From the NCBI GenBank assembly GCA_014685065.1, contig GCA_014685065.1_4092.2: 64,000 nucleotides of DNA; one strand, 5' to 3'. The DNA is from a phage. Position 1 is the stretch's first letter, and the number at the start of each line of letters is the position of its first letter. Made by a program: the position numbers and the translations under genes. Under the pieces are notes generated by a model, which saw only the letters and a program-made list of their open reading frames with translations, searched no databases and was not told the DNA's origin. Below are positions 3,900-53,833 of the stretch, one piece after another.

Positions 3900-3925
3900 G
3901 TACATCACCAAATGAGGAATACAAC

Positions 3926-4285: not shown

Positions 4286-4291
4286 CATAAA

Positions 4292-4324
4292 GGGTTGACT
4301 TCGGTCAGCCCTTTTTGCTATAAT
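4292..4324 (+). terminator. terminator/promoter dual element, copy 2
   Basis: GGGTTGACTTCGGTCAGCCCTTTTTGCTATAAT. Confidence 0.6.
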
Positions 4325-4350
4325 TATTTCATCAACACAAGAGGTAACAA

Positions 4351-4587
4351 ATGAAACTATCTTTTATACGATTAGCTGAATTCTTCGGTACTGATGTAAT
4401 TACTTTACAACAAATTGCAGATAATACTTCATTAAGTACACAAGAAGTACTTGACTTAGATGTAATTCAGTGCGATAATACTTCCATCGATTTCAAAGAA
4501 GGTCTTGTCGAAAAAGATAAGATTAAAGCTAAGATTAATGGTGCTGGGCGGGTTCAGTACTGGAAAGGAGTATTAAGTAATGTTTGA
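4351..4587 (+). CDS. hypothetical protein
   Basis: ORF track; SD GAGG. Confidence 0.5.
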   Translation: MKLSFIRLAEFFGTDVITLQQIADNTSLSTQEVLDLDVIQCDNTSIDFKEGLVEKDKIKAKINGAGRVQYWKGVLSNV

Positions 4588-5698: not shown

Positions 5699-5705
5699 AA
5701 CAAAA

Positions 5706-5738
5706 GGGTTGACTTCGGTCAGCCCTTTTTGCTATAAT
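5706..5738 (+). terminator. terminator/promoter dual element, copy 3
   Basis: GGGTTGACTTCGGTCAGCCCTTTTTGCTATAAT. Confidence 0.6.
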
Positions 5739-5766
5739 CATTTCATCAACTGAAGAGGGTAAAGAA

Positions 5767-6537
5767 ATGACCAGAGAAGCACGCAGCATTCAAATTCAGA
5801 AAAACTTCAACTCCATGATGGTTGCTCTTGAGTGTTTGCTCGATGATAGCAGTACTGTAAAAAGTATGGTTGTCAGTGGTGCTCCTGGTGTTGGTAAGAC
5901 TTACACCTTGTCCCAACGTCTCCAGAAGGCTCATGACGCAGCAGAATGGAACGTAGCTACTATCAGTGGTAAGATGACTACACTGGCTCTGTACGAAGTT
6001 CTGTACAAGAATCGTCACAGCACCAACGTGTTAGTACTGGATGATATGGACAGCATCTTTGATTCTGAAGACGGTATGAACCTGCTCAAAGCTGTTTTGG
6101 ATAGTGGTAAGCGTACTGTATCTTATATGACTAGCTCTAAGTACTTGAGCACTAACGGCATTCCTAATAGCTTTGATTTTAATGGTCGCATCGTATTCAT
6201 TACTAACAAAGATTTAGCGTTAGATGCTAAAGCTAAAACTAAAATGTCTGCTCATTATGCTGCTCTTATGTCTCGTTCTGTGTACGTGGATTTACAGATT
6301 CAGACTAAAAGTGATATCATGATTCATATTGAAAATGTAATGACTAAGACTAATATTCTTGCATCTAAAGGTGTTAACAGTAACGGTAGTAAAGCAATTC
6401 TGAATTGGATGTTGAAGCACGAAGATTCTCTTCGTTCACCTTCACTGCGTATGCCACTGTTGATTTCGGCAGTATATAACAACAACCCATACGATTGGGA
6501 AGAACAGTGCGAAAACTTGTTCCTTGAAAAAATTTAA
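5767..6537 (+). CDS. P-loop NTPase (AAA-like ATPase)
   Basis: Walker A GAPGVGKT, Walker B VLVLDDMD. Confidence 0.7.
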   Translation: MTREARSIQIQKNFNSMMVALECLLDDSSTVKSMVVSGAPGVGKTYTLSQRLQKAHDAAEWNVATISGKMTTLALYEVLYKNRHSTNVLVLDDMDSIFDSEDGMNLLKAVLDSGKRTVSYMTSSKYLSTNGIPNSFDFNGRIVFITNKDLALDAKAKTKMSAHYAALMSRSVYVDLQIQTKSDIMIHIENVMTKTNILASKGVNSNGSKAILNWMLKHEDSLRSPSLRMPLLISAVYNNNPYDWEEQCENLFLEKI

Positions 6538-6602
6538 TTCAATATTGACAGTACTAACAATGTGTAGTACTATAACAAAAGTTTAATCACTGGAGACACC
6601 CA

Positions 6603-6944
6603 ATGCGTGAGTTTTTTGAATCTAATATAATGCTTGGTATTACACTGATATACATGTTTGTATTCTTGTTTTATCATTCAATTGTAATTAGTCTTTGGTA
6701 TTTTAAAAGGAAAGTTGTTTTTAAATTGTATTCGTATGATAATGTATTCTTAGTTGTATATAGCATTATACAAGGTGGGTTTATTTTATTTGGTGTGATG
6801 ACATATGTGATTTACATGTTACAAATTGATAACACACCACACATTACACAATATGTTGTGTTTTCAGGACTAATCGTCTGGTTATTGGTGTGTACTATGT
6901 ACTTTATTATTAAAGCTCGTAATAACTTTAAATGGGGATTCTAA
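6603..6944 (+). CDS. small membrane protein paralog
   Basis: ORF track; near-duplicate of 6944..7282. Confidence 0.55.
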   Translation: MREFFESNIMLGITLIYMFVFLFYHSIVISLWYFKRKVVFKLYSYDNVFLVVYSIIQGGFILFGVMTYVIYMLQIDNTPHITQYVVFSGLIVWLLVCTMYFIIKARNNFKWGF

Positions 6945-7282
6945 TGTTAGAATTTTTTAAATCAGATACAATGATTAGTATTACTTTGATTTATCTGTTT
7001 GGTTTTTTCTTTTATCATGCACTAGTTGTAGTACTATGGTATTTTAAAAAGAAAATTGTTTTTAAACTGTATCCAGTGAGGAATTCATCACTAGTTCTTT
7101 ACACACTTGTTCAAGGTTTGTTTGCAATTGTTGGTCTTATGGCACACTTAATTTATTGTGCTAATCCTCACTTGAACTCAATCTCACAATATATTGTATT
7201 CTTTGGGTTGTTCATTTGGTTAGTTGTATACTTAATCCATCTCATTATTCATGGTAGAGATAAAATTCGCGGAGACTTCTAA
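6944..7282 (+). CDS. small membrane protein paralog
   Basis: TAATG overlap; WYFKKKIVFKLY motif shared with 6603 gene. Confidence 0.55.
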   Translation: MLEFFKSDTMISITLIYLFGFFFYHALVVVLWYFKKKIVFKLYPVRNSSLVLYTLVQGLFAIVGLMAHLIYCANPHLNSISQYIVFFGLFIWLVVYLIHLIIHGRDKIRGDF

Positions 7283-7629
7283 TGTTTGAAGCTTATCTTG
7301 AGTTTTTAAGGAGTAGTCCAGTTGCACATTCACTTGCAGGGATTATTCTAACAACTTATGTATCATTTTGGGTAGTTATGTTTCTAGGATGGTATTTTAA
7401 ACGACAATTCTATAAACGTAATGGTGAAGATTTTATGAATTCTGTCATTAATCAATCGTTGTTTGCATCAACATTGATTGCATGTATTGTAGCAACACTC
7501 ACAGGAAAGGTACTACCAGCTTTTTCCGCAGTTTACGGCACACTTGGGATGATATGTTTAACTTTTATATTGACCATTAAAATTTGTTGTGTTATGATTG
7601 AACTTCGAAATAAGATACCGGAGGAATGA
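7282..7629 (+). CDS. small membrane protein paralog
   Basis: TAATG overlap; hydrophobic; WYFKRQ motif. Confidence 0.5.
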   Translation: MFEAYLEFLRSSPVAHSLAGIILTTYVSFWVVMFLGWYFKRQFYKRNGEDFMNSVINQSLFASTLIACIVATLTGKVLPAFSAVYGTLGMICLTFILTIKICCVMIELRNKIPEE

Positions 7630-7964
7630 TGGAGTACTTTATTGATTTACTGCCGTGGTATATGAAAGTTAGTACTTTGTACTATATTATTAGTGCTGGA
7701 TTCTACTTTCTGATGTGGTTCTTCAAACGACCAATTTCAGTATTCATCGCTGATAACATGCTGCAATTAAAATTACACGCATGGTTTGGTATGGCGATGA
7801 TTATGCCTATTATTCACTACTCAATGATTAGTAGAGGTTTCCGTTCTAATGGTGAACCAATTGTATTAGTATTCTATTGGGGTTCAACTATTGCATATGT
7901 AAGTTTGTTGTTGTTCCCAGTCGTTCATAAATTACGTGCTAAAGTTCCTGATGCGAGGTACTAA
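7626..7964 (+). CDS. small membrane protein paralog
   Basis: ATGATG overlap; hydrophobic; WFFKRP motif. Confidence 0.5.
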   Translation: MMEYFIDLLPWYMKVSTLYYIISAGFYFLMWFFKRPISVFIADNMLQLKLHAWFGMAMIMPIIHYSMISRGFRSNGEPIVLVFYWGSTIAYVSLLLFPVVHKLRAKVPDARY

Positions 7965-8278
7965 TGGATATCGTAACATTGATTTACACGTTGTATTCAT
8001 TCTATTTCATTATGTGTTGGGTTGGATTTTTATTTGTACTGAAGATGTTTGATTATGTTGAAAAACAGATAAAAGAATTTTGTATTCCTTTTATTGGGTC
8101 AACCATTATTAGTATTACTTGTTTGTATTATTTGGTATGTGATCCACCTGATAATACAGCAATGATTGACTTGATGTTACTACCAACAACTGTTACTTTT
8201 TTATGTAGTCTGATGCCGCCGATTAGCCGTGGACTAACAGAATTTAGACGCAATCAAAAGCGTAAACGAGGGATGTAA
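7964..8278 (+). CDS. small membrane protein paralog
   Basis: TAATG overlap; hydrophobic. Confidence 0.5.
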   Translation: MDIVTLIYTLYSFYFIMCWVGFLFVLKMFDYVEKQIKEFCIPFIGSTIISITCLYYLVCDPPDNTAMIDLMLLPTTVTFLCSLMPPISRGLTEFRRNQKRKRGM

Positions 8279-8646
8279 TGGAAATTGCTCTTATTATCTT
8301 AACTGCTATGCTGTTTATTAGTACTGTGGTTATAATTGGTAAATTCTTTTGTGTATCATTTTTAGAAACGGTATACGATGAAATTGCTGATGATTATGAA
8401 TTACAAGCCGGATTTTTCATTACGTATTGGCTTAGTTTATTTTGTCTAGTCATTGCTTGGATTTTACATATCTTTAAATGGGGTATGGTAGACGGTGATC
8501 CTATTATGGCAATTATTGTTCTAGTGTTTGGTATCCTTGGTGGTGCAGTGCATAATCTAATGGTTATCTGGCAAACTGTTCAATATGTTTTGGTTCCCTA
8601 TTTCGAAAAGATGCACAGTACAATTAAAAAACGTAAACGAGGTTAG
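8278..8646 (+). CDS. small membrane protein paralog
   Basis: TAATG overlap; hydrophobic. Confidence 0.5.
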   Translation: MEIALIILTAMLFISTVVIIGKFFCVSFLETVYDEIADDYELQAGFFITYWLSLFCLVIAWILHIFKWGMVDGDPIMAIIVLVFGILGGAVHNLMVIWQTVQYVLVPYFEKMHSTIKKRKRG

Positions 8647-8647
8647 T

Positions 8648-9010
8648 ATGAACGGGATAGAATTATCTTTCGTTGGTCAATTACTAGTAATGGCGTATAC
8701 ATTTATCTTCTCACTGAATGCATTCGTGTGCATTGGGAAGTACTTCCATAAGCGACCATTATCAAATATATATGATGTAATCCAAAAGAGATATAGTCCA
8801 GCATATACTGTGTTGGGTACAGTATTCAATTTTGGTTTTATTGTATTAATAATTGGACTGTTCACATCCTCTTTGAATACAATAACCTTCGGTCTTATGA
8901 TATGTTCATTGGTATTAGCCGTAATTATATGTTGTTTAGTACTGCACCTTGTGGTACTATTGTATATAAAGATCTCTGAAATCCACCAACGTTTGGGTAT
9001 GAGGAAATAA
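8648..9010 (+). CDS. small membrane protein paralog
   Basis: ATG at 8648 after previous stop; hydrophobic. Confidence 0.5.
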   Translation: MNGIELSFVGQLLVMAYTFIFSLNAFVCIGKYFHKRPLSNIYDVIQKRYSPAYTVLGTVFNFGFIVLIIGLFTSSLNTITFGLMICSLVLAVIICCLVLHLVVLLYIKISEIHQRLGMRK

Positions 9011-9011
9011 T

Positions 9012-9383
9012 ATGAGTTACCGTGAGATATTTTCCATTATTTCAATTATTATGTTCAGTACTGGAACACTGGTATGGTTATTATACTTCTTCTGTATTAA
9101 TCCAGTGTATAATATGTTATGTAATATTAAATCAAGTGCCGGATATATCACTTTTATGGTCTTTATGGGATATTATTGTCTAAGCATTTTAGGTGTTGTT
9201 TTGGTTGTTATATTTGATGTGGGACCAAATAGTGATGGTATGGAAATACATGAATTAATAACCATGTTTGGATGTATGATACCAACAGCACTACTGTTTG
9301 TAGCTACTGGTAGTGGATTGATAAAATTATATAATTATTTAAAATCCATTCATAATTCCATTCATAATAAGCGTATGTCATAA
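9012..9383 (+). CDS. small membrane protein paralog
   Basis: ORF track; hydrophobic. Confidence 0.5.
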   Translation: MSYREIFSIISIIMFSTGTLVWLLYFFCINPVYNMLCNIKSSAGYITFMVFMGYYCLSILGVVLVVIFDVGPNSDGMEIHELITMFGCMIPTALLFVATGSGLIKLYNYLKSIHNSIHNKRMS

Positions 9384-9424
9384 TAAAAATCCAGTACTTA
9401 ATAGTACTGGATGTATAAGGAGTT

Positions 9425-19740: not shown

Positions 19741-19804
19741 ATTCCCTCCTTTATTTGTTATACTATATTTAATACAAATAAGAAAGCCAGTACAGTGTAC
19801 TGGC
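19741..19804 (-). promoter_or_regulatory. array intergenic terminator/promoter cassette
   Basis: hairpin 19786-19804 + conserved block. Confidence 0.5.
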
Positions 19805-19810
19805 ATTATG

Positions 19811-20920
19811 TTATTTTGGTAAATCAATTTTAGTAAAGACTGCAACATCCTCGATTGCACCTGGAATGGCGTAATACGATCCAGTACTATACACATCTCC
19901 ATTTTTGGTTAATATCGATGTCAAACCATCACTAAAAAGAACATCCCTAATCTCACTAACTTCAACGGGTAATTGTAAATTGGTAGCACTATATATAGCA
20001 CCAGTTTGAGAATTGTTTAATCCCAAACCACGGTTCGCCCCAACACCCTTCTGATATGTACTAGTAATTACCATTTGTGTAGCAGTATTTAAGGCAGGTG
20101 AATTCGTCATAAACAATGGAGAACTATTAGGCAAAGTACTTACAGGAACTGCACGGAATGTAGTCGTACCTGAACTAAGAAAGTTTGGAGTTTGACCACA
20201 TACGAAATATGATGTACCATTATAGTAATTTAATGCATTACCACCAATGGCTGCATCGATTACACCAGAACTACGCAATCCCCAAGTGTTAATTTGTGTT
20301 TGGTTCCCCGTACCATGCTGCCCACTACTATTCCATCCAGAACTATATAGCTTATTATCTAATGTAAGATACATACTATCATTCGCATTGGTCATTACTT
20401 TACGAACGTTCGTAGCACATTGAGTTAATGTGTAAATTGATGAGGAACCAATACCCAAAGAACCACGATATCCATTATCTCCTGCACCATAGAGTACTGA
20501 ATTAGTGCTAAGTACAAATATTAAACCATTTGTACATACAATATTAGCAATTTCACTTACTGGTATAGCATTGGTAAACCAATTAGTTCTTTCAACTAAT
20601 ACAGTACTGTAAGAAGTAGTTGTAGAAGATGAGAACCAGTACGTTTGACCTGATGTCCATATCGTATTATCATTTTTAATAATAACAAGTGTACGATCAC
20701 CCACGAAAAAATTAGAAACATCTGCACTTACTAATGTCCACGAAGACACCGTGTTGGTATTACCATTTCCAGATTCACCACCTTGATTTCTACCTATGTA
20801 ATATAAATCATGTGAATCAGTCAATAAGAATTGGCCTTGGGTAGAAGCACCAACTTTAATTATTTTTTTAGGACCAGGGACAATATTTCCATACCTAATC
20901 ATTCTTCCAAAAGGTAACAT
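19811..20920 (-). CDS. RCC1-like beta-propeller protein with MLPFGRM leader
   Basis: ATG at 20918-20920 after AGGAGGG. Confidence 0.75.
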   Translation of the reverse strand: MLPFGRMIRYGNIVPGPKKIIKVGASTQGQFLLTDSHDLYYIGRNQGGESGNGNTNTVSSWTLVSADVSNFFVGDRTLVIIKNDNTIWTSGQTYWFSSSTTTSYSTVLVERTNWFTNAIPVSEIANIVCTNGLIFVLSTNSVLYGAGDNGYRGSLGIGSSSIYTLTQCATNVRKVMTNANDSMYLTLDNKLYSSGWNSSGQHGTGNQTQINTWGLRSSGVIDAAIGGNALNYYNGTSYFVCGQTPNFLSSGTTTFRAVPVSTLPNSSPLFMTNSPALNTATQMVITSTYQKGVGANRGLGLNNSQTGAIYSATNLQLPVEVSEIRDVLFSDGLTSILTKNGDVYSTGSYYAIPGAIEDVAVFTKIDLPK

Positions 20921-20928
20921 ATTCCCTC

Positions 20929-22131
20929 CTATTGTTGCCATAACTGCGTTGGCATTAATGTTAGTGTAGTAATACTATAAGTACCATTAGGTAATCTACC
21001 ACCATTTCCATTCCAGCCACCACATGCATATAATTTATAATCTTTAGTAATTATTATGGTTCTGCTCCAATCTTTAGATGCCATAAGAACATTGTCATAA
21101 CCACCACTTATTGCACTAAGATTAAAAATATTCCAAGTTCTAACTAATGTATTAGTTCCATTACCTTCTTGACCATATGAGTTAGCACCACTACTTCTAA
21201 CATATGGTGCGTATTGTGCCATAGGTGCACCAATTGATGCATTTCCCATATTACTTGGACAAATAAAAGTACTGTACTTACTTACATCAACCGTGACCGA
21301 TGTGTTCCTAATTGGTGTTAGCTGATTTACCGATGTAGTCGTACCATTACCAGCTTGTCCAGTACTGTTAGCCCCGCTATAATATACAGACCCACCAGTA
21401 GTAAACCACCAAGTAACATCGTATGTAGTACTAATATGTTCTACATTACTAATCACGAATTTGTTCAAATATACAACAGAACTACCACCACATCCACTTT
21501 CACCAAAGTTATCCTTACCACAAAACCATGCATCTTTATTTGATTTGATATAGTGCGTTCCTTGTAATGAACATGCCATATGTGTAACTTCACCCATATT
21601 AGTCATAACTGTGAGTGTAGGGATGGAATTTTTATTACCAGAGCCACATTCACCATTGGTATTTCTTCCACACGCAATTACTCTACCATCGGTTAATAAT
21701 ATTCTAGTACTTTCACCTATATATACACTCTTGATCATATTAGCCATAACACCTATTTTATTAAATGCAACAGTAACATCAGTCCATGTTGTCAAATAAC
21801 CATTAACAGGTGTTGCATCTCCATAATCAGAAAATGCACCAACCGACCCAGTGTAGTATATTTTATTATCCAAATCAATCATCAATGAACCTTGAACACC
21901 AAGCCAAAAGGCTGCACAGTTCCTTGCAAGTACTGTAAATGACGAAACTGCTGCTGAATTCCCAAGACCAAATTGATAAAAGTTATTACTACCATAACCA
22001 TATAAAGTATTAGTTGGGTTATGGAGATACATACAGTTTGTATAATGTTGTTGTAAAACATCTGAGAACTCTACAGGTTCTGGACCTGGTGCAATATTTG
22101 CGTACTTAACCATTCTTCCAAAAGGTAACAT
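20929..22131 (-). CDS. RCC1-like beta-propeller protein with MLPFGRM leader
   Basis: ORF track; motifs GANSTGQAGNG, GANSYGQEGNG. Confidence 0.75.
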   Translation of the reverse strand: MLPFGRMVKYANIAPGPEPVEFSDVLQQHYTNCMYLHNPTNTLYGYGSNNFYQFGLGNSAAVSSFTVLARNCAAFWLGVQGSLMIDLDNKIYYTGSVGAFSDYGDATPVNGYLTTWTDVTVAFNKIGVMANMIKSVYIGESTRILLTDGRVIACGRNTNGECGSGNKNSIPTLTVMTNMGEVTHMACSLQGTHYIKSNKDAWFCGKDNFGESGCGGSSVVYLNKFVISNVEHISTTYDVTWWFTTGGSVYYSGANSTGQAGNGTTTSVNQLTPIRNTSVTVDVSKYSTFICPSNMGNASIGAPMAQYAPYVRSSGANSYGQEGNGTNTLVRTWNIFNLSAISGGYDNVLMASKDWSRTIIITKDYKLYACGGWNGNGGRLPNGTYSITTLTLMPTQLWQQ

Positions 22132-46299: not shown

Positions 46300-46548
46300 T
46301 GCGTAAAGGGATCTAGTACTGATTCAGAAAAAAGTCAAGGCGTTTTTAAAATTATGCGTTAAAAAAATGCATAGGTAATCCCTTGACTTTTTTGAAATAA
46401 AAGGGATTGGACTATGGCAAAATGCGTAGGGGGCTAAAGGGCGGGTAACCTTAGCGACTTCGATAAAGGGGTATTACGAATAAAATGTTATTGACTTTTT
46501 ATACAAATCGTATAAAATATGATTGATATTAATTTTAAGGGAGTCCCT

Positions 46549-46746
46549 ATGCGTATTTTAACTCAAGCAGAACACCACGAAAGACTTATCAATAACATGG
46601 CTATGATAATGTATAAGTCACATGAACGTGGTATTGCCTATAAGCGTGAATTAATTATGGCACTATTCATTGGAACTAACTTTCAGGAAAGGTATGTCAA
46701 GGATTGGATTTGGTATTTAATTGAAGATGTAACGAGTAAACTATGA
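46549..46746 (+). CDS. LGTNYQ-family small protein
   Basis: ATG after SD AAGGGAG; motif IGTNFQERYV. Confidence 0.55.
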   Translation: MRILTQAEHHERLINNMAMIMYKSHERGIAYKRELIMALFIGTNFQERYVKDWIWYLIEDVTSKL

Positions 46747-46943
46747 AAATGCGTAAATTAACCGAAAAAGAATATCAAGCACTGTTACGTAAAAACTTCA
46801 CAAAGATTTATAATACAGACTCACACGTAGAACGAATGGAGTTATACCTTTTGATTACATTGGGAACTAACTATCAGGATGCATGGGTAACGAAATATGT
46901 GGATACATTGAAAAATAAAACATTGTCCACGAGGAAACAATGA
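46743..46943 (+). CDS. LGTNYQ-family small protein
   Basis: ATGA overlap; LGTNYQDAWV. Confidence 0.6.
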   Translation: MKMRKLTEKEYQALLRKNFTKIYNTDSHVERMELYLLITLGTNYQDAWVTKYVDTLKNKTLSTRKQ

Positions 46944-47155
46944 AAACTATAACACGAACCCAATCATTCGGACTTATCTTGAAATACATGGACTTAATGG
47001 TGGATATCAGCAAAGACCTTAGTAAAACTGAAATTGAAGTTGCAATTGCAAGAGCAGAGTTCCGCATGTTGGCTGTACTGAACACAAACCATCAGGAAGA
47101 TTATGTTGAAGAATGGATTCATTTTTTAATAGAAGATATAAAGAGTAAATTATGA
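46940..47155 (+). CDS. LGTNYQ-family small protein
   Basis: ATGA overlap; LNTNHQEDYV. Confidence 0.6.
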   Translation: MKTITRTQSFGLILKYMDLMVDISKDLSKTEIEVAIARAEFRMLAVLNTNHQEDYVEEWIHFLIEDIKSKL

Positions 47156-47367
47156 TTATTATAGAAAACTCATATCAATATACTGAACGCATCGCTGCCA
47201 GACAACTTGAAATCCTCATAATATACGAAGAGACTTCTGATTTAAACTTAGCCGAGGTATTGGAAAATGATATACTATTGGGTGCATTCTTAGGAACAGA
47301 CTATCAGAAGTATTATGAGGAAAAGTATTTGTCATCTCTTGAGAAATACATCAGGAGTAAACTATGA
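47152..47367 (+). CDS. LGTNYQ-family small protein
   Basis: ATGA overlap; LGTDYQKYYE. Confidence 0.6.
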   Translation: MIIIENSYQYTERIAARQLEILIIYEETSDLNLAEVLENDILLGAFLGTDYQKYYEEKYLSSLEKYIRSKL

Positions 47368-47576
47368 TTTTTTTAACACCAGAAGAATATAAGAAACGTT
47401 TCAAATCCGCACAGGGTGAAATCTTACTTATATACCTTTCAAATGCAGACCTTGACTTATCAAGGGTATTAGAAAAAGATTTACTTATGGGTGCATTTTT
47501 GGATACAGACTTTCAGGAGTATTATGTAGGGGAATACTTAATTGCACTCCAGAAATACATCAGGAGTAAACTATGA
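47364..47576 (+). CDS. LGTNYQ-family small protein
   Basis: ATGA overlap; LDTDFQEYYV. Confidence 0.6.
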   Translation: MIFLTPEEYKKRFKSAQGEILLIYLSNADLDLSRVLEKDLLMGAFLDTDFQEYYVGEYLIALQKYIRSKL

Positions 47577-47791
47577 AACATTTAAGTATCACCGAGAAGA
47601 ATAAAATTGTCATTGCTGCAATAAACAAATATTTTACACTTCCTCACAAAGAAGGTTTATGTGTAAGGGAACACAGGATAAACACCACCGATATACGCAT
47701 GATGGCTGTACTGGGGACGAACTTTCAGGAAGAGTATGTTGTTGCACACATAGTTGCCCTCACAAATCTAATAAGGGATAAATGTAAATGA
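47573..47791 (+). CDS. LGTNYQ-family small protein
   Basis: ATGA overlap; LGTNFQEEYV. Confidence 0.6.
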   Translation: MKHLSITEKNKIVIAAINKYFTLPHKEGLCVREHRINTTDIRMMAVLGTNFQEEYVVAHIVALTNLIRDKCK

Positions 47792-48045
47792 AATACTTAA
47801 CTTCTGACGAATATTCACTTAGAATTCGTAAACTCACCCCAGAAGCAAGAGTAATCTACGATGACGATGCACTTTCATGGGTCGAGATGAAAGTTAAAGT
47901 TCATGAGCTATGGTTGCTGTACTTTGTGGGAACCCAATATCAAGAGAAATATTGTACCGATTATCTTGAACAACTAATGGATCTTATACAGGAAAAACTA
48001 AATGATCGAATTGTGGAAAAATATGAAAACTTTATCAAGCACTGA
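47788..48045 (+). CDS. LGTNYQ-family small protein
   Basis: ATGA overlap; VGTQYQEKY. Confidence 0.55.
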   Translation: MKYLTSDEYSLRIRKLTPEARVIYDDDALSWVEMKVKVHELWLLYFVGTQYQEKYCTDYLEQLMDLIQEKLNDRIVEKYENFIKH

Positions 48046-48274
48046 GTATCAAACTGCCCTCTTCTCCCTTCTAAACACCCTCCGCACGAACAATAAACTT
48101 TATAATTCCCGTGAAGCTGATATCATCAATGCTGAGGTATATCTTAATAAATTCATAGGGACAAACTATCAAGAAATGTTCACTCAACGATATATCTCTG
48201 CACTGAGAAACGCAATATGTGATAAAACCCGCCAAGCCCAAAGAGAATGGAATAAACAATGCGACAAAGACTAA
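48023..48274 (+). CDS. LGTNYQ-family small protein
   Basis: internal ATG of tracked ORF; IGTNYQEMF. Confidence 0.5.
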   Translation: MKTLSSTEYQTALFSLLNTLRTNNKLYNSREADIINAEVYLNKFIGTNYQEMFTQRYISALRNAICDKTRQAQREWNKQCDKD

Positions 48275-48510
48275 ATCACAAAATGTATTGTAAACTATTG
48301 CAGACACTGGCACAGAAACACTATGACACTGTATCTGAAATATTACCCTATGATATCATGCGTTTAATTCATAGTGAGGCAGAGATGCTTGTACTGATGA
48401 CAGGCACTGATAAAAAAGCAATTGCCAAATCAATAGATATGTTCATCGAAGCACAATGTCAACACATTAGAACCGAGATATGGAGACGAGAGAATGATAA
48501 CACTAAATGA
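48259..48510 (+). CDS. LGTNYQ-family small protein (divergent)
   Basis: ORF track; start uncertain. Confidence 0.45.
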   Translation: MRQRLNHKMYCKLLQTLAQKHYDTVSEILPYDIMRLIHSEAEMLVLMTGTDKKAIAKSIDMFIEAQCQHIRTEIWRRENDNTK

Positions 48511-48709
48511 GTTTCAGTATCATTGGAGGTTACAAACTATCAAATCAAAAGTGTATAGTATTGTGTTAAACAAATCTATTGCACAAGAGGACAAATGTGT
48601 TATAATAGCTGAAATGAAGTTGGGTGCTTTCGTAGGGACAAACTATCAAAACATCTACACTGACGTATTGTTAAGTGCCTTACGTAACAAGGTGGTATCC
48701 AAAATATGA
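48494..48709 (+). CDS. LGTNYQ-family small protein
   Basis: VGTNYQNIY. Confidence 0.55.
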   Translation: MITLNEFQYHWRLQTIKSKVYSIVLNKSIAQEDKCVIIAEMKLGAFVGTNYQNIYTDVLLSALRNKVVSKI

Positions 48710-48924
48710 GAAATTTACAAGGCTTTGAATACATCAGACTCCTGAAAACATGCACCAGCAGAAGGAAAATCTTATCAAGCGATAAGAGCATCCAAGCTAA
48801 CCTTAAGCACGCACTAGTAACTGAACTCTATGTAGGTGCACTCTTAGGCACAAATTATCAACAAATGTATGTAGATCTATGGATTGACGCTCTACAGAAA
48901 GAGGTTAAAAGTAAATGCAAATGA
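48706..48924 (+). CDS. LGTNYQ-family small protein
   Basis: ATGA overlap; LGTNYQQMYV. Confidence 0.6.
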   Translation: MRNLQGFEYIRLLKTCTSRRKILSSDKSIQANLKHALVTELYVGALLGTNYQQMYVDLWIDALQKEVKSKCK

Positions 48925-49133
48925 TTAATTTAAGTAAAGACGAATTTTATGTTATACTGGCGAAAACTTATCCAGCACGTAAGGCCGTTTATGATAGTCA
49001 CATTATTGAACCCTCAAAGAAGTTGATTTTAGTAAATGAGATAAAGATGCTTTCAGTCTTAGGAACAAACTATCAAGAGAATGCTGTACTGATGTTAATT
49101 GATGCCCTCCAGCGAGAGGTTAAACGTAAATGA
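48915..49133 (+). CDS. LGTNYQ-family small protein
   Basis: LGTNYQENAV. Confidence 0.6.
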   Translation: MQMINLSKDEFYVILAKTYPARKAVYDSHIIEPSKKLILVNEIKMLSVLGTNYQENAVLMLIDALQREVKRK

Positions 49134-49360
49134 AAATGATTAATTTAACTTACCATGAATATCAAAAACGTTTAAATGCATCCAGAGATATAAGGATTCA
49201 AATATTCAATAACAAAAGATTGAAGCCTGATATCAGGAAAATCAAAATCATAGAAGCCGTGTTGTGCAACTTCCTAGGGACTAACTATCAGGAAGGTAAG
49301 GTAGAAAACTATCTTATAGAACTCATGAATAGTATTGAAAATAAATGTAAGGGTAATTAA
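49130..49360 (+). CDS. LGTNYQ-family small protein
   Basis: ATGA overlap; LGTNYQEGKV. Confidence 0.6.
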   Translation: MKMINLTYHEYQKRLNASRDIRIQIFNNKRLKPDIRKIKIIEAVLCNFLGTNYQEGKVENYLIELMNSIENKCKGN

Positions 49361-49361
49361 C

Positions 49362-49601
49362 ATGAAAATGATTAAATTATCTCAAGCAAAATATAAAGAA
49401 CGCCTGGTAAAAATTGCACCTGGACTTAATGAAATCCATCACGGAGAAGTCATTAAACACGGAAATAAGATGATTATGAAACTTGAGTTAAAGGTGGGTG
49501 CATTCATAGGAACAAACTATCAGGAGTATTATGTAGATGAATACATAATCGCACTTAAGAGATACATTGGAAGAAAACTATATCTACAAACTAAAGAATA
49601 G
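49362..49601 (+). CDS. LGTNYQ-family small protein
   Basis: IGTNYQEYYV; internal ATG of tracked ORF. Confidence 0.55.
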   Translation: MKMIKLSQAKYKERLVKIAPGLNEIHHGEVIKHGNKMIMKLELKVGAFIGTNYQEYYVDEYIIALKRYIGRKLYLQTKE

Positions 49602-49630
49602 TATTGAAAATAAATGTAAGGGTAATTAAC

Positions 49631-49894
49631 ATGCAAATGATCAATTTAAGTAAAGATGAATATACCGAGCGTATGACAAAAATTACGCACAAACGTAATA
49701 CAATCTATCACAACCCAGAAATTCAACACAGTAAGAAAATGATTATGATGCGTGAGTTAAAGATGGGTGTATTCTTAGGAACAAACTATCAAGATACAGA
49801 AGTAAATCGCTTAATCGCGGAGTTACTACTGGAAATCAGAGGTAAGCTGTACTTTCATCAAATGACCCAACCACTGAGGTGTACTAAGAAATGA
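49631..49894 (+). CDS. LGTNYQ-family small protein
   Basis: LGTNYQDTEV; upstream junction is a duplicate of 49320-49365. Confidence 0.55.
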   Translation: MQMINLSKDEYTERMTKITHKRNTIYHNPEIQHSKKMIMMRELKMGVFLGTNYQDTEVNRLIAELLLEIRGKLYFHQMTQPLRCTKK

Positions 49895-50106
49895 TCAACA
49901 TCACATTGCAAGAAAGATTCATCCGAATCAACTATGCAATTACCAAATTAGATGCTACTATAGGATTCCAAAGTCTACCATACAAAACCAGATTGTTATT
50001 AGAGTGTGAAGCTAAGTTGGGTGTACTATTAGGGACGCAACACCAACAACGATATGTGGAAATCTGGATTGATCTTTTAACCCAGGATGTACATGAGAGA
50101 ATGTAA
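49891..50106 (+). CDS. LGTNYQ-family small protein
   Basis: ATGA overlap; LGTQHQQRYV. Confidence 0.6.
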   Translation: MINITLQERFIRINYAITKLDATIGFQSLPYKTRLLLECEAKLGVLLGTQHQQRYVEIWIDLLTQDVHERM

Positions 50107-50364
50107 ATGCAAAATGAAATGATATACTTAACCTATAATGAATACGTCGAGAGATTAGTTCGTGCCAAGAGATATACCAATAAACGTCCAATTGACCTAA
50201 ACCAAACCCCTGCCGAAAGGAGTGCAGAAGTTTTATACATTCAACTCATGTACTTTCTTGGCACTGACAGACAAGAGTATTACATTGAAAGTATGCTTCG
50301 ATATCTTAAATTCTCTATAAAGGAAAAGATACATGCTCAAGAATTTAAAAATCCTAACAGTTAA
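50107..50364 (+). CDS. LGTNYQ-family small protein
   Basis: LGTDRQEYY. Confidence 0.55.
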   Translation: MQNEMIYLTYNEYVERLVRAKRYTNKRPIDLNQTPAERSAEVLYIQLMYFLGTDRQEYYIESMLRYLKFSIKEKIHAQEFKNPNS

Positions 50365-50575
50365 TGAATATCATACGATTGTAATGAAAACTAATAGTGC
50401 AATTTCTAAAAAATCAAACCCAAAGTACATACTGGAACACACATTCGAAGAACGTCAATTAGCTTTAGTTGAAGCAAAACTTCTTGCACTCCTAGGAACA
50501 AACTATCAAGAAGAATACATCAGAAAACTAATATACCTTTTAACTAAACATATAAGAAAAAGAAAAAATGCATGA
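50333..50575 (+). CDS. LGTNYQ-family small protein
   Basis: LGTNYQEEYI; 32-nt overlap with previous gene. Confidence 0.5.
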   Translation: MLKNLKILTVNEYHTIVMKTNSAISKKSNPKYILEHTFEERQLALVEAKLLALLGTNYQEEYIRKLIYLLTKHIRKRKNA

Positions 50576-50802
50576 AACACTTGACAGATGATGAACATGG
50601 GCTTATAGTAATGGATGTAATCAACATCGAATACAAAAAGTTGATACGCTACCGTTGTTATGAAGATAAGCAACTCGTTCTAGCAGAACAGAAGTTGTTT
50701 CGACTCTTAAACACAAACTTCCAAGCACAATACGAAGAATCGTATATGTACCTTTTGGCGAGGAAAGCAAAAAGAGATTATGAAAATTTTAAGCAAAGGT
50801 GA
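50572..50802 (+). CDS. LGTNYQ-family small protein
   Basis: ATGA overlap; LNTNFQAQY. Confidence 0.55.
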   Translation: MKHLTDDEHGLIVMDVINIEYKKLIRYRCYEDKQLVLAEQKLFRLLNTNFQAQYEESYMYLLARKAKRDYENFKQR

Positions 50803-50995
50803 TTCAGTAATATTACTTATAGAGAGTTCAAGTAAATTCTTAAACATAACATTGTCTGATATAGATGAGGATGAAAAAGAGTTACTGAGAGCAGATTTAA
50901 GAGTACTGTTACATATCGGAACAAACCTACAAGAAGAATATGTAGAGTGCTACATCAATGAACTTAAAGAATCAGTACTGAGAAAATGCAAATGA
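50780..50995 (+). CDS. LGTNYQ-family small protein
   Basis: IGTNLQEEYV. Confidence 0.55.
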   Translation: MKILSKGDSVILLIESSSKFLNITLSDIDEDEKELLRADLRVLLHIGTNLQEEYVECYINELKESVLRKCK

Positions 50996-51213
50996 AAATC
51001 ATTACCGATGTAGAATACCTAACAATCATAAATGGACTGTTTTTGAAGCTCTTCGTCATTAACACATCAGATATACCAGATATGGATAAAATTATTAAGA
51101 GAAATGAAGTCTATGTTCTAGCTACCCTGGGAACGAACTATCAAGAACACGACATTAATGATTATATTAATACACTTAAACGAGCGATTGAATTAAAATG
51201 CCAAAACCCCTAG
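50986..51213 (+). CDS. LGTNYQ-family small protein
   Basis: LGTNYQEHDI. Confidence 0.6.
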   Translation: MQMKIITDVEYLTIINGLFLKLFVINTSDIPDMDKIIKRNEVYVLATLGTNYQEHDINDYINTLKRAIELKCQNP

Positions 51214-51413
51214 GAACAGCAGAATACATTGAACTCATGGGATTACACTTCTCATCCTTTCAGAAACTTATGCGAGAATCAAAGAATGATTTAGAATATC
51301 ACATCAAAAGTTCAGATTTAAGAATGCTTCTCACTCTAAACACAGATTCCCAAGAGCGTTTTGTCAATGAGCATATTAGAGCACTTTTAAATGGCATCAA
51401 GGATAGACTATGA
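51198..51413 (+). CDS. LGTNYQ-family small protein
   Basis: LNTDSQERFV. Confidence 0.55.
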   Translation: MPKPLGTAEYIELMGLHFSSFQKLMRESKNDLEYHIKSSDLRMLLTLNTDSQERFVNEHIRALLNGIKDRL

Positions 51414-51625
51414 AGGAAATATCAAATCAAGAGTACTTGGCACTATTCAGGAAGAATAATCACAAATATATGGCACTTGATTCAAGAACTGATATAGGGG
51501 AACTTGAAAAAAATCTTTTGCGTTCAGAGATGATAGTACTGACACTCTTAGGAACACAGCATCAAGAGAGAACTGTTAATTCACACATAGGTATTCTTAT
51601 ACAGATAGTACAGGAAAAGATATGA
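51410..51625 (+). CDS. LGTNYQ-family small protein
   Basis: ATGA overlap; LGTQHQERTV. Confidence 0.6.
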   Translation: MKEISNQEYLALFRKNNHKYMALDSRTDIGELEKNLLRSEMIVLTLLGTQHQERTVNSHIGILIQIVQEKI

Positions 51626-51843
51626 GAATCATAACACAACAAGATATTCTTAAGTTCACAAGGGTTCATGCATCTGAATTTGATGCTATATTATCAAAAA
51701 GTTACAACAACCCTTATACAGAAGATGTACACTACAATGAATTATGGATGTATATACTTTTAGGTACAAATAAGCAAGAGCAAGCAGTACAGAAGTATTT
51801 GACAGCTTTACGTGATGCTACAGCTAATGGAGTATGTGTTTAA
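51622..51843 (+). CDS. LGTNYQ-family small protein
   Basis: ATGA overlap; LGTNKQEQAV. Confidence 0.6.
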   Translation: MRIITQQDILKFTRVHASEFDAILSKSYNNPYTEDVHYNELWMYILLGTNKQEQAVQKYLTALRDATANGVCV

Positions 51844-51844
51844 T

Positions 51845-52096
51845 ATGAAAGTACTGACAGAACTAGAAATGTATCATAGATTTAATAAGTACTCACATTT
51901 ACTGAAACCTATACATAGGATTAAGTGTTCTTGTTATGAGAAACAGGTTTTAATCTATGAGCACAAGTTCTTTGTATCATTAGGTACAGATCAACAAGAG
52001 TACTATTTGACGTTGTACTTGATTACATTAATAGATTTAATTCACTATAAAACCACAAAATCTAAACAAGCTAATAAAGAGAAATATGAAAACTAA
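51845..52096 (+). CDS. LGTNYQ-family small protein
   Basis: LGTDQQEYYL. Confidence 0.55.
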   Translation: MKVLTELEMYHRFNKYSHLLKPIHRIKCSCYEKQVLIYEHKFFVSLGTDQQEYYLTLYLITLIDLIHYKTTKSKQANKEKYEN

Positions 52097-52430
52097 TATA
52101 CAACTCAAGGTATATAAATCATTTGAACATACATATATCAAAAGTAGTCTATGTAGAGATGTAATGGATTACAAGGGTAAGCCATTCACAATTACCTATG
52201 ATTCTTATGTTAGTGATTTATATATATCATTTGTTAATTACGAAAATAAAATATACAAGCACGTTGATATTAAAGATTTAAGTACTTTATCTGAAGAGGA
52301 ATACTTTCAGGAATCATTAGTATGGGATTTAGAGTTTCCTATGCCATTAGTCCATAAAATGATAGTACTAATGAAAGAATCTAAACAGGAGCCTAATGGT
52401 GATTATGAAGAACACACAGTTGAGTATTAA
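52086..52430 (+). CDS. EEYFQ-family protein
   Basis: motif LSEEEYFQESLVWD. Confidence 0.6.
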   Translation: MKTNIQLKVYKSFEHTYIKSSLCRDVMDYKGKPFTITYDSYVSDLYISFVNYENKIYKHVDIKDLSTLSEEEYFQESLVWDLEFPMPLVHKMIVLMKESKQEPNGDYEEHTVEY

Positions 52431-52782
52431 GAGTTATACAAGCTCAAGTACTGTGACAATCGAAGTGAATTCTATTAATGCTGGTAATGCAGTAGATAAG
52501 TTCTTTATTGCTCAAGGGTACAGGAAAGATATTCATCAATATTGTTCAGTATATGGGGAGTACAATTCCACTGAAGATATAATTTATTGGTCAACACATC
52601 AAGATTATCTAACTAAAATTGGAGTTCCAGATGTTAGTACTTTATCTGAAGAAGAATACTTTCAGTACAGCTTAGTACATGATGTACCTATACCTTTAGG
52701 GTTAATCAAGGGTATACAGGAAGAGGTTCATAAGCTTAAATCCATGAGTTCAGGCACTTTCATTAGAACAGTGCAATACTAG
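52396..52782 (+). CDS. EEYFQ-family protein
   Basis: LSEEEYFQYSLVHD; SD AGGAG; start could be 52405. Confidence 0.55.
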   Translation: MVIMKNTQLSIKSYTSSSTVTIEVNSINAGNAVDKFFIAQGYRKDIHQYCSVYGEYNSTEDIIYWSTHQDYLTKIGVPDVSTLSEEEYFQYSLVHDVPIPLGLIKGIQEEVHKLKSMSSGTFIRTVQY

Positions 52783-52841
52783 CTTGATAGTACTTTTCAT
52801 TACTGATATAGTACACTAACGTTAATCATAGGGTAAAAATT

Positions 52842-53087
52842 ATGTTAAATTTTTTAAATTTCCTTATCGTCTTGTGTATTGTTCTTGGGATTGCACCATT
52901 TGTATTGTATTTCATGGATTCAGATGAAATGCAGAAGATGAATTGCACAAGGACAGGACAGAGTAGAGAAGAGACGATTCTTATGCCTGTTACGGTTATT
53001 GTTAACAACATGCCCATTACAAACATGGTCCCTACCCTAACGACAACGTACCAGTACTCTTGTGCTGACGGAGAGAGGTGGAGATGA
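52842..53087 (+). CDS. small membrane protein
   Basis: ORF track; hydrophobic N-terminus. Confidence 0.45.
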   Translation: MLNFLNFLIVLCIVLGIAPFVLYFMDSDEMQKMNCTRTGQSREETILMPVTVIVNNMPITNMVPTLTTTYQYSCADGERWR

Positions 53088-53404
53088 AATTTAATATAGC
53101 AAAAACATCGAGTATATGTATTTTTGGTTATGCAGAAGAGTTAGGTGATATTGACATTCTTTTGTACAAAAAGGATGGTGTTATGCATTTCAAGTACCAG
53201 GATGAAGAGGCAGACAATTATCCTTTACCTAATTTAGTACAAATGCAGGAAGATGAATTATTCCAGTACAGCTTAGTATACGACATTGATATTTGCACGA
53301 TGCCAGTACTAATTAATATTCAAAAAGTGATGCTCGATATGTATGATAAGCTAATACAAGGTATGTCAGGGAGAATCATTGAAATCGATATACAAGACAA
53401 TTAA
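53084..53404 (+). CDS. EEYFQ-family protein
   Basis: QEDELFQYSLVYD; ATG at 53084 (tracked ORF begins at GTG 53078). Confidence 0.55.
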   Translation: MKFNIAKTSSICIFGYAEELGDIDILLYKKDGVMHFKYQDEEADNYPLPNLVQMQEDELFQYSLVYDIDICTMPVLINIQKVMLDMYDKLIQGMSGRIIEIDIQDN

Positions 53405-53597
53405 TCAAGAATGGAAGACCCAAAAGTACAGGGAATTCAACAGGAATTTTACAAAAGATGCATTGAATTTAAAAACAACAGAGTTTGATATGTTTATTTT
53501 TCTTGGAACACGTTCACAAGAACAATTTGTTCATTATTATATAAATTCGTTGCGAACGGAGATAGTATGCAAAACACAGGGTATTATAAAAAGGTAA
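53379..53597 (+). CDS. LGTNYQ-family small protein (dispersed copy)
   Basis: LGTRSQEQFV. Confidence 0.5.
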   Translation: MKSIYKTINQEWKTQKYREFNRNFTKDALNLKTTEFDMFIFLGTRSQEQFVHYYINSLRTEIVCKTQGIIKR

Positions 53598-53833
53598 ACC
53601 AATATTTGTACGCTACAAAGTACAGGGATTTTTGTTTAAAGGGTGGTGATGAAGATTTTTCTTTGCGATTATCAGAATTTAATCTGTTATTTTATCTTGG
53701 TACAAAAGAACAAGAAGAAATGGCACAGAAATTTATCAAGCACCTTGTACAAAAAATTAATATGCAAATTTTGATGCTTAAGATACAGAATGAGATAAAT
53801 GAATATGAATCCAGAAATAGTTCAGGATCTTAA
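53567..53833 (+). CDS. LGTNYQ-family small protein (dispersed copy)
   Basis: LGTKEQEEM. Confidence 0.5.
   Translation: MQNTGYYKKVNQYLYATKYRDFCLKGGDEDFSLRLSEFNLLFYLGTKEQEEMAQKFIKHLVQKINMQILMLKIQNEINEYESRNSSGS

What the first reader, a model, noticed from the sequence alone, without database searches (positions are those of the whole stretch)
46549..53833. Array of 25 (plus 2 dispersed) ~71-aa paralogs with a conserved LGTNYQE-YV core, translationally coupled by ATGA overlaps
From 46549 to 52096 genes recur with a ~215-bp period. Each is ~71 aa with an N-terminal M-K-x-L-T-x-x-E-Y and a central (L/I/V)-G-T-(N/D/Q)-(Y/F/H)-Q-(E/D/Q) motif followed by Y-V...I..L. Most junctions are ATGA overlaps. 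A gene junction is duplicated almost exactly at 49320-49365 and 49590-49635, indicating recent unequal recombination. Two further members (53379, 53567) sit inside the next family's territory. I do not recognise the family.
Basis: partly seen in the sequence, partly recalled or inferred. Interest (0 to 1): 0.7.

Follow-up and report, generated by a model that had tools for sequence, protein, structure and literature searches.

The report
Tandem array of tiny phage paralogues
A giant E. coli phage carries 25 back-to-back (plus 2 nearby) diverged copies of a gene for a tiny three-helix protein of unknown function, each copy kept intact by selection, placed just inside the genome's terminal repeat where early host-takeover genes usually lie.

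Summary
An HMM built from the family finds exactly 27 members in the 64-kb window, all on the + strand: 25 in tandem (46549-52096) and 2 at 53379 and 53567. The window comes from an Asteriusvirus (PBECO4/121Q-like) jumbo coliphage. Every sequenced relative has the array at the same place, with about 20-31 copies, starting ~100 bp after the ~21-kb left direct terminal repeat. The copies are old: mean identity is 24%, nearly all are intact, and 17 lineages are single-copy in all 8 genomes compared. Selection is purifying (dN/dS 0.38; core 0.26, surface 0.44). Only one duplication, a 269-bp unit giving m14/m15, is young and polymorphic between isolates. AlphaFold predicts a confident up-down-up three-helix bundle (pLDDT 93.8). 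The GT-N-x-Q-E motif sits at the helix 2/3 turn and looks like an N-capping box. Pfam, NCBIfam, PDB sequence and fold searches gave no characterised relative. The only match is PHROG 4148/28039, function unknown. The most likely role is a polycistronic early operon of diversified small binding proteins for host takeover or counter-defence. Expression, timing and targets are inferred, not shown.

The parts
46451..46451 (.). Approximate right boundary of the left direct terminal repeat (DTR); the array is the first transcription unit of the unique region
   Evidence: The vB_Ec-M-J record annotates the DTR as 1..21525. This maps by alignment to ...GGGCGGGTAACC|TTAGCGAC at window ~46450. DTRs of ~21 kb are reported for Sharanji, fEgEco12 (digest-confirmed) and BF17.
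46491..46518 (+). Sigma-70-like promoter candidate TTGACT-16-TAAAAT in front of the first array gene
   Evidence: Consensus scan gives 10/12. It is conserved in 7 of 8 isolates, including the divergent Turkey5. It is a consensus match only; no transcription data exist.
46537..46543 (+). Shine-Dalgarno AAGGGAG, 5 nt before the ATG of m01
   Evidence: Sequence; GGAG is conserved in all isolates.
46549..46746 (+). m01, 65 aa
   Evidence: HMM 67 bits; orthologues 57-91% identical
46743..46943 (+). m02, 66 aa; ATGA overlap with m01
46940..47155 (+). m03, 71 aa; ATGA overlap
47152..47367 (+). m04, 71 aa; ATGA overlap; closest paralogue pair with m05 (52%)
47364..47576 (+). m05, 70 aa; ATGA overlap; AGGAG SD encoded in the m04 C-terminus
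47573..47791 (+). m06, 72 aa; ATGA overlap
47788..48045 (+). m07, 85 aa; ATGA overlap
48023..48274 (+). m08, 83 aa (alternative start 48002)
48259..48510 (+). m09, 83 aa; the most aberrant motif (TGTDKK)
48494..48709 (+). m10, 71 aa
48706..48924 (+). m11, 72 aa; ATGA overlap
48915..49133 (+). m12, 72 aa (a start at 48921 would give an ATGA overlap)
49130..49360 (+). m13, 76 aa; its C-terminal codons form the first copy of the duplicated junction
49362..49601 (+). m14, 79 aa; product of the youngest duplication, missing from some isolates; the modelled member
49303..49791 (+). 269-bp tandem duplication (1.8 copies, 77% matches) with exact 38-nt blocks at 49327-49364 and 49596-49633
49631..49894 (+). 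m15, 87 aa; preceded by a non-coding relic of the m13 C-terminus
49891..50106 (+). m16, 71 aa; ATGA overlap; this slot holds a different allele or paralogue (42-44% identical) in 4 isolates
50107..50364 (+). m17, 85 aa
50333..50575 (+). m18, 80 aa; found fused in frame to m19 on one metagenomic contig (P0001)
50572..50802 (+). m19, 76 aa; ATGA overlap; contains an 11/12 promoter-like site at 50581-50609
50780..50995 (+). m20, 71 aa
50986..51213 (+). m21, 75 aa (a start at 50992 would give an ATGA overlap)
51198..51413 (+). m22, 71 aa
51410..51625 (+). m23, 71 aa; ATGA overlap
51622..51843 (+). m24, 73 aa; ATGA overlap
51845..52096 (+). m25, 83 aa; last member of the contiguous array
53379..53597 (+). 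m26, 72 aa, TTG start; dispersed member with a divergent N-terminus
   Evidence: HMM 68 bits
53567..53833 (+). m27, 88 aa; dispersed member
   Evidence: HMM 65 bits

Best explanation
This is an ancient, lineage-specific tandem expansion of one small soluble protein family in Asteriusvirus jumbo phages. Each unit encodes an up-down-up three-helix bundle of about 8.5 kDa. The hydrophobic core and one pole are conserved: the N-terminal strand pairs with the G-T turn, and T-N-x-Q-E acts as the helix-3 N-cap. The exposed surface and net charge differ widely between copies. The array grew by unequal crossing-over between neighbouring units. The copies then diverged and were each retained. They are packed as one polycistronic unit with overlapping stop and start codons. 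The Shine-Dalgarno sequence of each gene is written into the C-terminal codons of the gene before it. The TGA of the ATGA overlap forces the second codon to begin with A, which gives K, I or R. The operon is the first transcription unit after the left terminal repeat and is probably read early by host RNA polymerase. The proteins most likely act as a repertoire of diversified binding modules that each engage a different host (or phage) macromolecule during takeover or counter-defence. Shown here: the array, the homology, the fold prediction, purifying selection, conservation of position and the duplication history. Inferred: expression, early timing, coupling and the binding or counter-defence role.
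For: Array and homology: 27 HMM hits, + strand only, with the alignment. Fold: AlphaFold2 gives pLDDT 93.8 and pTM 0.79, with helices at 8-27, 33-48 and 54-78 and a bridge between residues 4 and 51. Independent BFVD models of relatives superpose at TM 0.85/0.94. Real, selected genes: pooled orthologue dN/dS is 0.35-0.39 in 7 genome comparisons, split into core 0.26, motif 0.19 and surface 0.44, against 0.28 for flanking genes. Each genome has 26-28 full-length copies and almost no fragments. Old and individually retained: paralogues average 24% identity and neighbours are more alike than non-neighbours, p=0.0002. There are 37 orthologue clusters, 17 of them single-copy in all 8 genomes. The array sits at the same locus in the divergent Turkey5 with about 20 copies. 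Diversified surfaces: pI ranges 4.45-9.89 and net charge -6.5 to +7.8. Operon architecture: 20 of 24 junctions overlap, SD motifs are enriched with p=6e-6, and 20 of 27 second codons start with A. Early-region context: the array starts ~100 bp after the DTR end. Twelve perfect sigma-70 promoters lie in the DTR just upstream on the same strand, and a conserved promoter-like site sits at 46491. In the related phage PA5oct, DTR genes are early and transcribed by host RNAP. Not structural: no 8-9 kDa protein is among the 62 phAPEC6 virion proteins.
Against: There are no transcript, proteomic or phenotypic data for any member. Promoter calls are consensus matches only. Pooled surface dN/dS is 0.44, so there is no overall sign of the positive selection expected in an arms race. 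Known anti-defence proteins are usually structurally diverse single genes rather than one expanded scaffold. Array content barely differs between isolates grown on Salmonella and on E. coli. Small proteins are often missed by virion mass spectrometry, so that negative result is weak. Generic three-helix bundles carry no functional information.
Confidence: 0.45

Rival explanations
1. Co-assembling subunits. The paralogues are made in near-equal amounts from a coupled operon and pack into one hetero-oligomeric helical assembly inside the infected cell, such as a scaffold, a compartment or a nucleoid-associated structure. They would not be independent binders.
For: Tight stop/start overlap would favour fixed stoichiometry. 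The conserved core and pole on a common scaffold could be an oligomer interface. An in-frame fusion of two neighbours, P0001 (m18+m19), exists in nature. Acidic and basic members coexist. Individual retention of 17 lineages fits obligate subunits.
Against: Copy number varies from about 20 to 31, and slots are swapped for 42-60% identical alleles between isolates. That is hard to reconcile with a fixed multi-subunit machine. The distant metagenomic relative has members scattered in small groups. No prediction of an interface could be obtained, and the fusion alignment was unusable.
Confidence: 0.15
2. Small DNA-binding regulators. The L-G-T-x-x-Q stretch between helices 2 and 3 would be a helix-turn-helix, and the array would be a set of transcription factors or nucleoid proteins.
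For: The motif superficially resembles the 'LG(V/T)S..T' HTH turn. Several members are basic, with pI above 9. One NCBIfam hit to a Sar-family regulator and two to response regulators each involve a single member at E of 0.01 or weaker.
Confidence: 0.07
3. Largely dispensable 'genomic filler'. The family would be a self-propagating duplication-prone cassette under weak constraint with no specific role, tolerated because a jumbo capsid has room to spare.
For: dN/dS is higher than in the flanks, 0.38 against 0.28, and the tails reach 0.70. Copy number and slot content vary. There are no homologues outside one phage lineage.
Against: dN/dS is well below 1 even at surface positions. Nearly every copy is intact in 8 genomes. 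Seventeen lineages are universally retained. The array survives at the same locus in Turkey5 and, in dispersed form, in a 29%-GC distant relative. Start codons and SD sites are preserved.
Confidence: 0.13
4. Recent dosage amplification ('genomic accordion') of one effector in response to a current selective pressure.
For: There is tandem architecture, and one 269-bp duplication is polymorphic between isolates.
Against: Copies average 24% identity with a maximum of 52%. TRF sees only one duplication. Orthologues are syntenic across the genus.
Confidence: 0.03

Closest known systems
PHROG families phrog_4148 and phrog_28039 (function unknown)
   Same: This is the same protein family: 26 of 27 members match phrog_4148 (best E 9e-27) and 13 of 27 match phrog_28039.
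   Different: The PHROG entries carry no function, structure or description of the tandem organisation. None of the Asteriusvirus papers whose text I searched for paralogue, duplication or tandem-repeat terms describes the array, and the phAPEC6 sections I read (genome overview, virion proteome) do not mention it.
Terminal-repeat-associated early / host-takeover gene clusters (Bacillus phage SPO1 host-takeover module; T5 pre-early region; PA5oct DTR early genes)
   Same: These are many small proteins of unknown function on one strand at the genome end that enters first, next to or inside a long DTR. The SPO1 module is a cluster of 26 genes for host shut-off (abstract of 10.1101/569657). PA5oct DTR genes are early.
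   Different: Those clusters consist of unrelated genes, each usually with its own strong promoter. That description fits the window's DTR region at 26.7-45.2 kb. The array instead consists of 25 paralogues in one tightly overlapped operon just outside the DTR. Early timing is not shown for this phage.
Lineage-specific expansions in other jumbo phages, e.g. about 35 copies of a zinc ribbon in Bacillus phage G
   Same: One tiny domain is expanded to tens of copies within a single jumbo-phage lineage, with function only guessed (PMC7824862).
   Different: The fold is different: a three-helix bundle with no metal ligands. Here the copies form a strictly tandem, overlapping operon.
Multigene families and 'genomic accordions' near the termini of large eukaryotic DNA viruses (ASFV MGF110/360, poxvirus K3L amplification); from my own knowledge, not tested
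   Same: Tandem paralogues lie close to the genome ends, copy number varies between isolates, and a role in host range or immune evasion is established or suspected.
   Different: The viruses and hosts are unrelated. The accordion model involves recent near-identical copies, which is not the case here.
Tandem arrays of immunity proteins in bacterial polymorphic-toxin loci (e.g. the SUKH superfamily)
   Same: These are runs of small, diversified paralogous binding proteins sharing one scaffold, each thought to neutralise a different partner. They were also recruited by DNA viruses (abstracts of PMC3113570 and PMC3482391).
   Different: There is no sequence or fold relationship. No toxin gene is associated, and the family has no bacterial members at all.

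Membership tests
phrog_4148 / phrog_28039 | Significant match to the family profile HMM over most of its length | tested here: met
   26/27 and 13/27 members match at E<=0.01. Member 1 covers profile positions 1-71 of 74 at E 9e-20.
Any curated Pfam / NCBIfam family | Score above the curated gathering threshold | tested here: not met
   Only scattered single-member hits appear, at E>=0.002 and far below the cut-offs.
Any protein of solved structure | Profile-sequence match, or a significant fold match to a specific family | tested here: not met
Helix-turn-helix DNA-binding proteins | Compact tri-helical core with a tight 3-4 residue turn, plus HTH profile or fold matches | tested here: not met
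   The model has long antiparallel helices of 20, 16 and 25 residues with a 5-residue connection. There are no consistent HTH hits.
Translationally coupled operon | Stop and start codons overlap or abut, and an SD lies inside the upstream gene | tested here: met
   20 of 24 junctions overlap, 12-14 of them as ATGA. An SD of at least 4 nt is present in 21 of 27 genes against a 35% background, p=6e-6.
Translationally coupled operon | Downstream translation depends on upstream translation | not testable with these tools
   This needs reporter fusions with upstream stop mutations, or ribosome profiling.
Early / host-takeover gene cluster | Location in or next to the terminal repeat that enters first, on the early strand | tested here: met
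   The array starts ~100 bp after the DTR end.
Early / host-takeover gene cluster | Host sigma-70 promoter driving the genes | tested here: inconclusive
   There is a conserved 10/12 site at 46491-46518, and 12 perfect sites lie upstream in the DTR. These are consensus matches only.
Early / host-takeover gene cluster | Transcription in the first minutes of infection; effect on host processes | not testable with these tools
   I found no report of transcriptome data for an Asteriusvirus: keyword searches listed 29 papers naming the genus, but only some were opened. The only analogy is PA5oct.
Virion structural protein | Detection in purified particles | tested here: not met
   No protein of 8-10 kDa is among the 62 phAPEC6 virion proteins. 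This negative is weak for small proteins.
Genomic accordion (recent dosage amplification) | Near-identical tandem copies | tested here: not met
   Mean paralogue identity is 24% and the maximum 52%. TRF detects only one 77% duplication.
HKEYY small-protein array of the same window (22475-26093) | Profile-profile similarity | tested here: not met
   hhalign probability is 1.2%.

The most novel reading that the evidence does not exclude
The array is a phage 'multigene family' in the sense used for large eukaryotic DNA viruses. One minimal three-helix scaffold would have diversified into about 37 or more specificities across the genus, each neutralising or hijacking a different host factor such as a distinct defence sensor or effector. 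This would give the jumbo phage a pre-loaded, recombination-shuffled counter-defence repertoire, expressed as the first operon after the terminal repeat.
Probability: 0.25. Interest if true: 0.75.

Novelty: new member of a known kind. Interest (0 to 1): 0.5.

Why it matters
About 4-5% of the genes of every Asteriusvirus (27-31 of roughly 550-750 annotated genes) belong to this one uncharacterised family. The copies are kept intact and individually conserved, at the position where a phage usually places its first-acting genes. If they are diversified binders of host factors, the array is a compact, ready-made library for discovering new host-takeover or anti-defence activities. It would also be a clean model of how gene duplication builds specificity repertoires in phages. 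These phages are being proposed for therapy against pathogenic E. coli and Salmonella, so knowing what a twentieth of their genes do has practical value. The tiny, confidently predicted scaffold could also interest protein engineers.

Tried and rejected
1. Homology to known families. I scanned Pfam, NCBIfam, PADLOC and PDB sequences. I also ran an exhaustive HMMER search of 1.84 billion representatives (93 hits, all small proteins of the same lineage) and two word-indexed searches of 5.8 billion proteins. None gave a characterised relative.

3. Guilt by fusion. The 269-aa relative P0182 (phage UB) has a C-terminal extension of about 200 aa with no Pfam or convincing PHROG match and no homologue in the window.

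4. Relationship to the neighbouring HKEYY array. hhalign probability is 1.2%.

5. Testing packing of neighbours with the natural m18-m19 fusion (P0001). MAFFT put all paralogues on one half, so the alignment could not support a two-domain prediction. I did not submit the job.

6. The search for related loci with the full alignment failed because no stretch was conserved enough. A subset found only phage 121Q in IMG/VR.

7. The helix-turn-helix idea prompted by 'LGTxxQ' was rejected on model geometry and the lack of HTH hits.

8. The accordion or recent-amplification idea was rejected on divergence.

9. Literature. None of the Asteriusvirus, 121Q or PBECO4 papers I checked describes the array or reports transcriptome data for the genus. 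Most were keyword-searched rather than read in full.

Full report
**What the window is.** Megablast of 46500-54000 matches 34 phage records, all Escherichia or Salmonella jumbo phages of the PBECO4/121Q type (genus Asteriusvirus, about 350-385 kb). Identity is 86-96%, and every gene under the match is annotated 'hypothetical protein'.

**Checking the observation.** The ORF list shows an unbroken run of small + strand ORFs from 46519 to 52096. I refined the start codons using upstream Shine-Dalgarno motifs and aligned 27 proteins.
- An HMM built from that alignment and run on every stop-to-stop ORF of the whole window, both strands, recovers exactly these 27 and nothing else, at 61-87 bits each.
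- Twenty-five are contiguous (46549-52096; mean spacing 221 bp, modal 212-215 bp). Two lie at 53379 and 53567, interleaved with a different family.
- T49 is invariant, Q52 and L63 are 26/27, G48 is 23/27 and E/D40 is 26/27. The N-terminus reads M-(K/I/R)-x-L-(T/S)-x-x-E-Y.
- Twelve of 24 junctions are ATGA overlaps, or 14 if m12 and m21 use their second ATG. Twenty of 24 overlap in some way.
- The duplicated junction is real. A 38-nt block is identical at 49327-49364 and 49596-49633, with none expected by chance.
- That block lies inside a 269-bp tandem duplication with 77% matches, the only repeat TRF can see in the region.

**Are these real genes?**
- Seven related genomes carry syntenic orthologues.
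- Pooled Nei-Gojobori dN/dS is 0.35-0.39 at dS 0.10-0.37.
- Split by structural class, dN/dS is 0.26 for core columns, 0.19 for the motif, 0.44 for surface columns and 0.70 for the variable C-terminal tails. Twenty-two flanking non-family genes give 0.28.
- Each genome holds 26-28 full-length copies and almost no fragments.
- Shine-Dalgarno matches of at least 4 nt precede 21 of 27 starts, against a 35% background (p=6e-6).

These are protein-coding genes under purifying, somewhat relaxed, selection.

**History of the array.**
- Paralogues average 24% identity, with a maximum of 52% for m04/m05.
- Adjacent copies are more alike than non-adjacent ones (permutation p=0.0002), which is the signature of tandem duplication by unequal crossing-over followed by long divergence.
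- Across eight genomes there are 37 orthologue-level clusters, 17 of them single-copy in all eight.
- Copy number in the fetched loci is 27-31.
- The divergent Turkey5/JNE01 lineage has about 20 copies at the same locus.
- Individual slots are mosaic. For example, m16 is 92-100% identical in three isolates but only 42-44% in four others, and m14 is missing from WPEC5, ph0011 and vB_Ec-M-J. 121Q matches m14 at only 49% and has the junction block once rather than twice.

The array is therefore old and mostly stable, with a variable fringe. The m14/m15 duplication is the only young event, and even it has diverged to 48% protein identity outside the 38-nt block. That block may persist through gene conversion or because it carries the SD and start context.

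**Distribution.**
- tblastn finds the family in 36 phage records, all Asteriusvirus-type, and in no Klebsiella, Cronobacter or Pectobacterium relative.
- The exhaustive profile search of 1.84 billion representative proteins gives only 93 hits, all 52-122 aa except one of 269 aa. The named ones are E. coli phage or E. coli assemblies.
- IMG/VR contains only 121Q.
- One 40.8-kb metagenomic contig (29% GC, no nucleotide similarity to the window) carries at least 12 members in small tandem groups. It also has homologues of other left-arm genes of the window, so it is a distant relative of the same lineage.
- A second database search with a broadened profile added nothing new.

**Structure.** AlphaFold2 on a 68-sequence alignment gives a very confident model (pLDDT 93.8, pTM 0.79).
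- Helices span residues 8-27, 33-48 and 54-78, with a one-residue bridge between the N-terminal L4 region and the G-T turn.
- Independent BFVD models of relatives superpose at TM 0.85/0.94.
- Conserved hydrophobic positions follow the 3-4 spacing of buried helix faces.
- The invariant T49 with Q52/E53 three and four residues later has the pattern of a helix N-capping box, and G48 ends helix 2. I therefore read the 'LGTNYQE' motif as structural rather than catalytic; this is inference.
- Position 2 (K, I or R) is explained at the DNA level. The TGA of the ATGA overlap forces the second codon to start with A, as it does in 20 of 27 genes.
- The conserved C-terminal I-(R/K)-x-K codons often spell the next gene's SD, for example ATC AGG AGT AAA CTA TGA.
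- Net charge ranges from -6.5 to +7.8, so the surfaces are diversified on a common scaffold.

**Genomic context.**
- The vB_Ec-M-J record annotates a direct terminal repeat of 21,525 bp, and its array begins at 21,624.
- Repeats of about 21 kb are reported for Sharanji, fEgEco12 (confirmed by restriction digests) and BF17.
- By alignment, the repeat ends at about window 46450, 98 nt before the first array gene.
- The stretch of the repeat just upstream (26.7-45.2 kb) contains 12 perfect TTGACA-16/17-TATAAT promoters on the + strand, many near-perfect ones, and individually spaced small genes.
- The array has only one promoter-like site in front (46491-46518, conserved even in Turkey5) and one inside (50581). 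No convincing terminator was found.
- In the related jumbo phage PA5oct, most terminal-repeat genes are early genes transcribed by host RNA polymerase.
- The phAPEC6 virion proteome contains no 8-10 kDa protein.

**Interpretation.** The best-supported reading is an early polycistronic operon encoding a repertoire of small three-helix binding modules that diversified by duplication, with each copy retained for its own role. Host takeover or counter-defence is the most plausible arena, given the position, size, lineage restriction and slot-level mosaicism. This functional step is inferred, not shown, and pooled dN/dS gives no arms-race signal.

The rival explanations are:
- co-assembling subunits of one complex, which fits the coupling but not the variable copy number;
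- HTH-like DNA binders, contradicted by the model geometry and by the acidic members;
- near-neutral filler, contradicted by the intactness and retention of copies;
- a recent accordion, contradicted by the divergence.

**Novelty.** The genes are in public genomes and in PHROGs, but none of the papers I checked describes the array. Tandem lineage-specific expansions of tiny proteins are a known kind of feature in jumbo phages; phage G has about 35 copies of a zinc ribbon. I therefore class this as a new, uncharacterised member of a known kind. It is notable for its size, age and position.

Noticed in passing
window 46395-46470: A block of about 70 nt (GGGATTGGACTATGGCAAAATGCGTAGGGGGCTAAAGGGCGGGTAACCTTAGCGACTTCGATAAAGGGG) is conserved in 7 of 8 isolates, including the divergent Turkey5. 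It spans the annotated end of the left direct terminal repeat of vB_Ec-M-J, so it is a candidate repeat-boundary or terminase-recognition element.
   Followed up: partly
window 26700-45200, + strand: Twelve perfect 12/12 sigma-70 promoters (TTGACA-16/17-TATAAT) occur here, plus a second recurrent class, TTGCAA-16-TATAAT, with at least 9 copies. They stand in front of individually spaced small genes, which is the architecture of a terminal-repeat early or host-takeover region.
   Followed up: partly
window 35359, 39398, 42702, 44963: A repeated 12-bp-stem hairpin, AAAGGGATTGACTCCGGTCAGTCCCTTT, is followed by GCTATTATAT. The TTGACT -35 box lies inside the hairpin, so this is a possible combined terminator/promoter element. 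A degenerate copy may sit at about 46381.
   Followed up: no
window 10545-22131, - strand: This is an array of about nine paralogous genes of 376-433 aa. By size and position they probably correspond to the ~40 kDa 'DNA condensation proteins' (gp003-010, gp549, gp551) found in the phAPEC6 virion.
   Followed up: no
window 22475-26093, + strand: This is a separate tandem array of about 15 ORFs of roughly 60 aa (MHKEYY...LLIYRY), the 'HKEYY array'. It is unrelated to the present family by profile-profile comparison (probability 1.2%).
   Followed up: partly
window 52086-53404 (and perhaps 53799-55094): A third small family with a conserved LSEEEYFQ-SLV-D motif has three clear copies, interleaved with the two dispersed members m26 and m27. 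It has no Pfam match.
   Followed up: partly
window ~26000-27900: The cumulative GC skew has its minimum at about 26 kb, next to an ORF-poor stretch. This is about 20.5 kb upstream of the DTR end, so it probably marks the physical left end of the genome and the start of the terminal repeat.
   Followed up: no
L009 (metagenomic contig SRR34023385_227669), 2098-13141: A 29%-GC uncultured phage contig carries at least 12 shorter members of the family in scattered tandem groups. It also has homologues of window ORF 52842-53087 and of the ~160-aa paralogue families at 58.7-63.9 kb, so it is a distant relative of Asteriusvirus with the same left-arm gene families.
   Followed up: partly
window 58700-63900, + strand: There is another run of paralogous genes of about 120-207 aa with overlapping junctions. 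Much of the phage's left arm appears to be built from tandem paralogue families.
   Followed up: no
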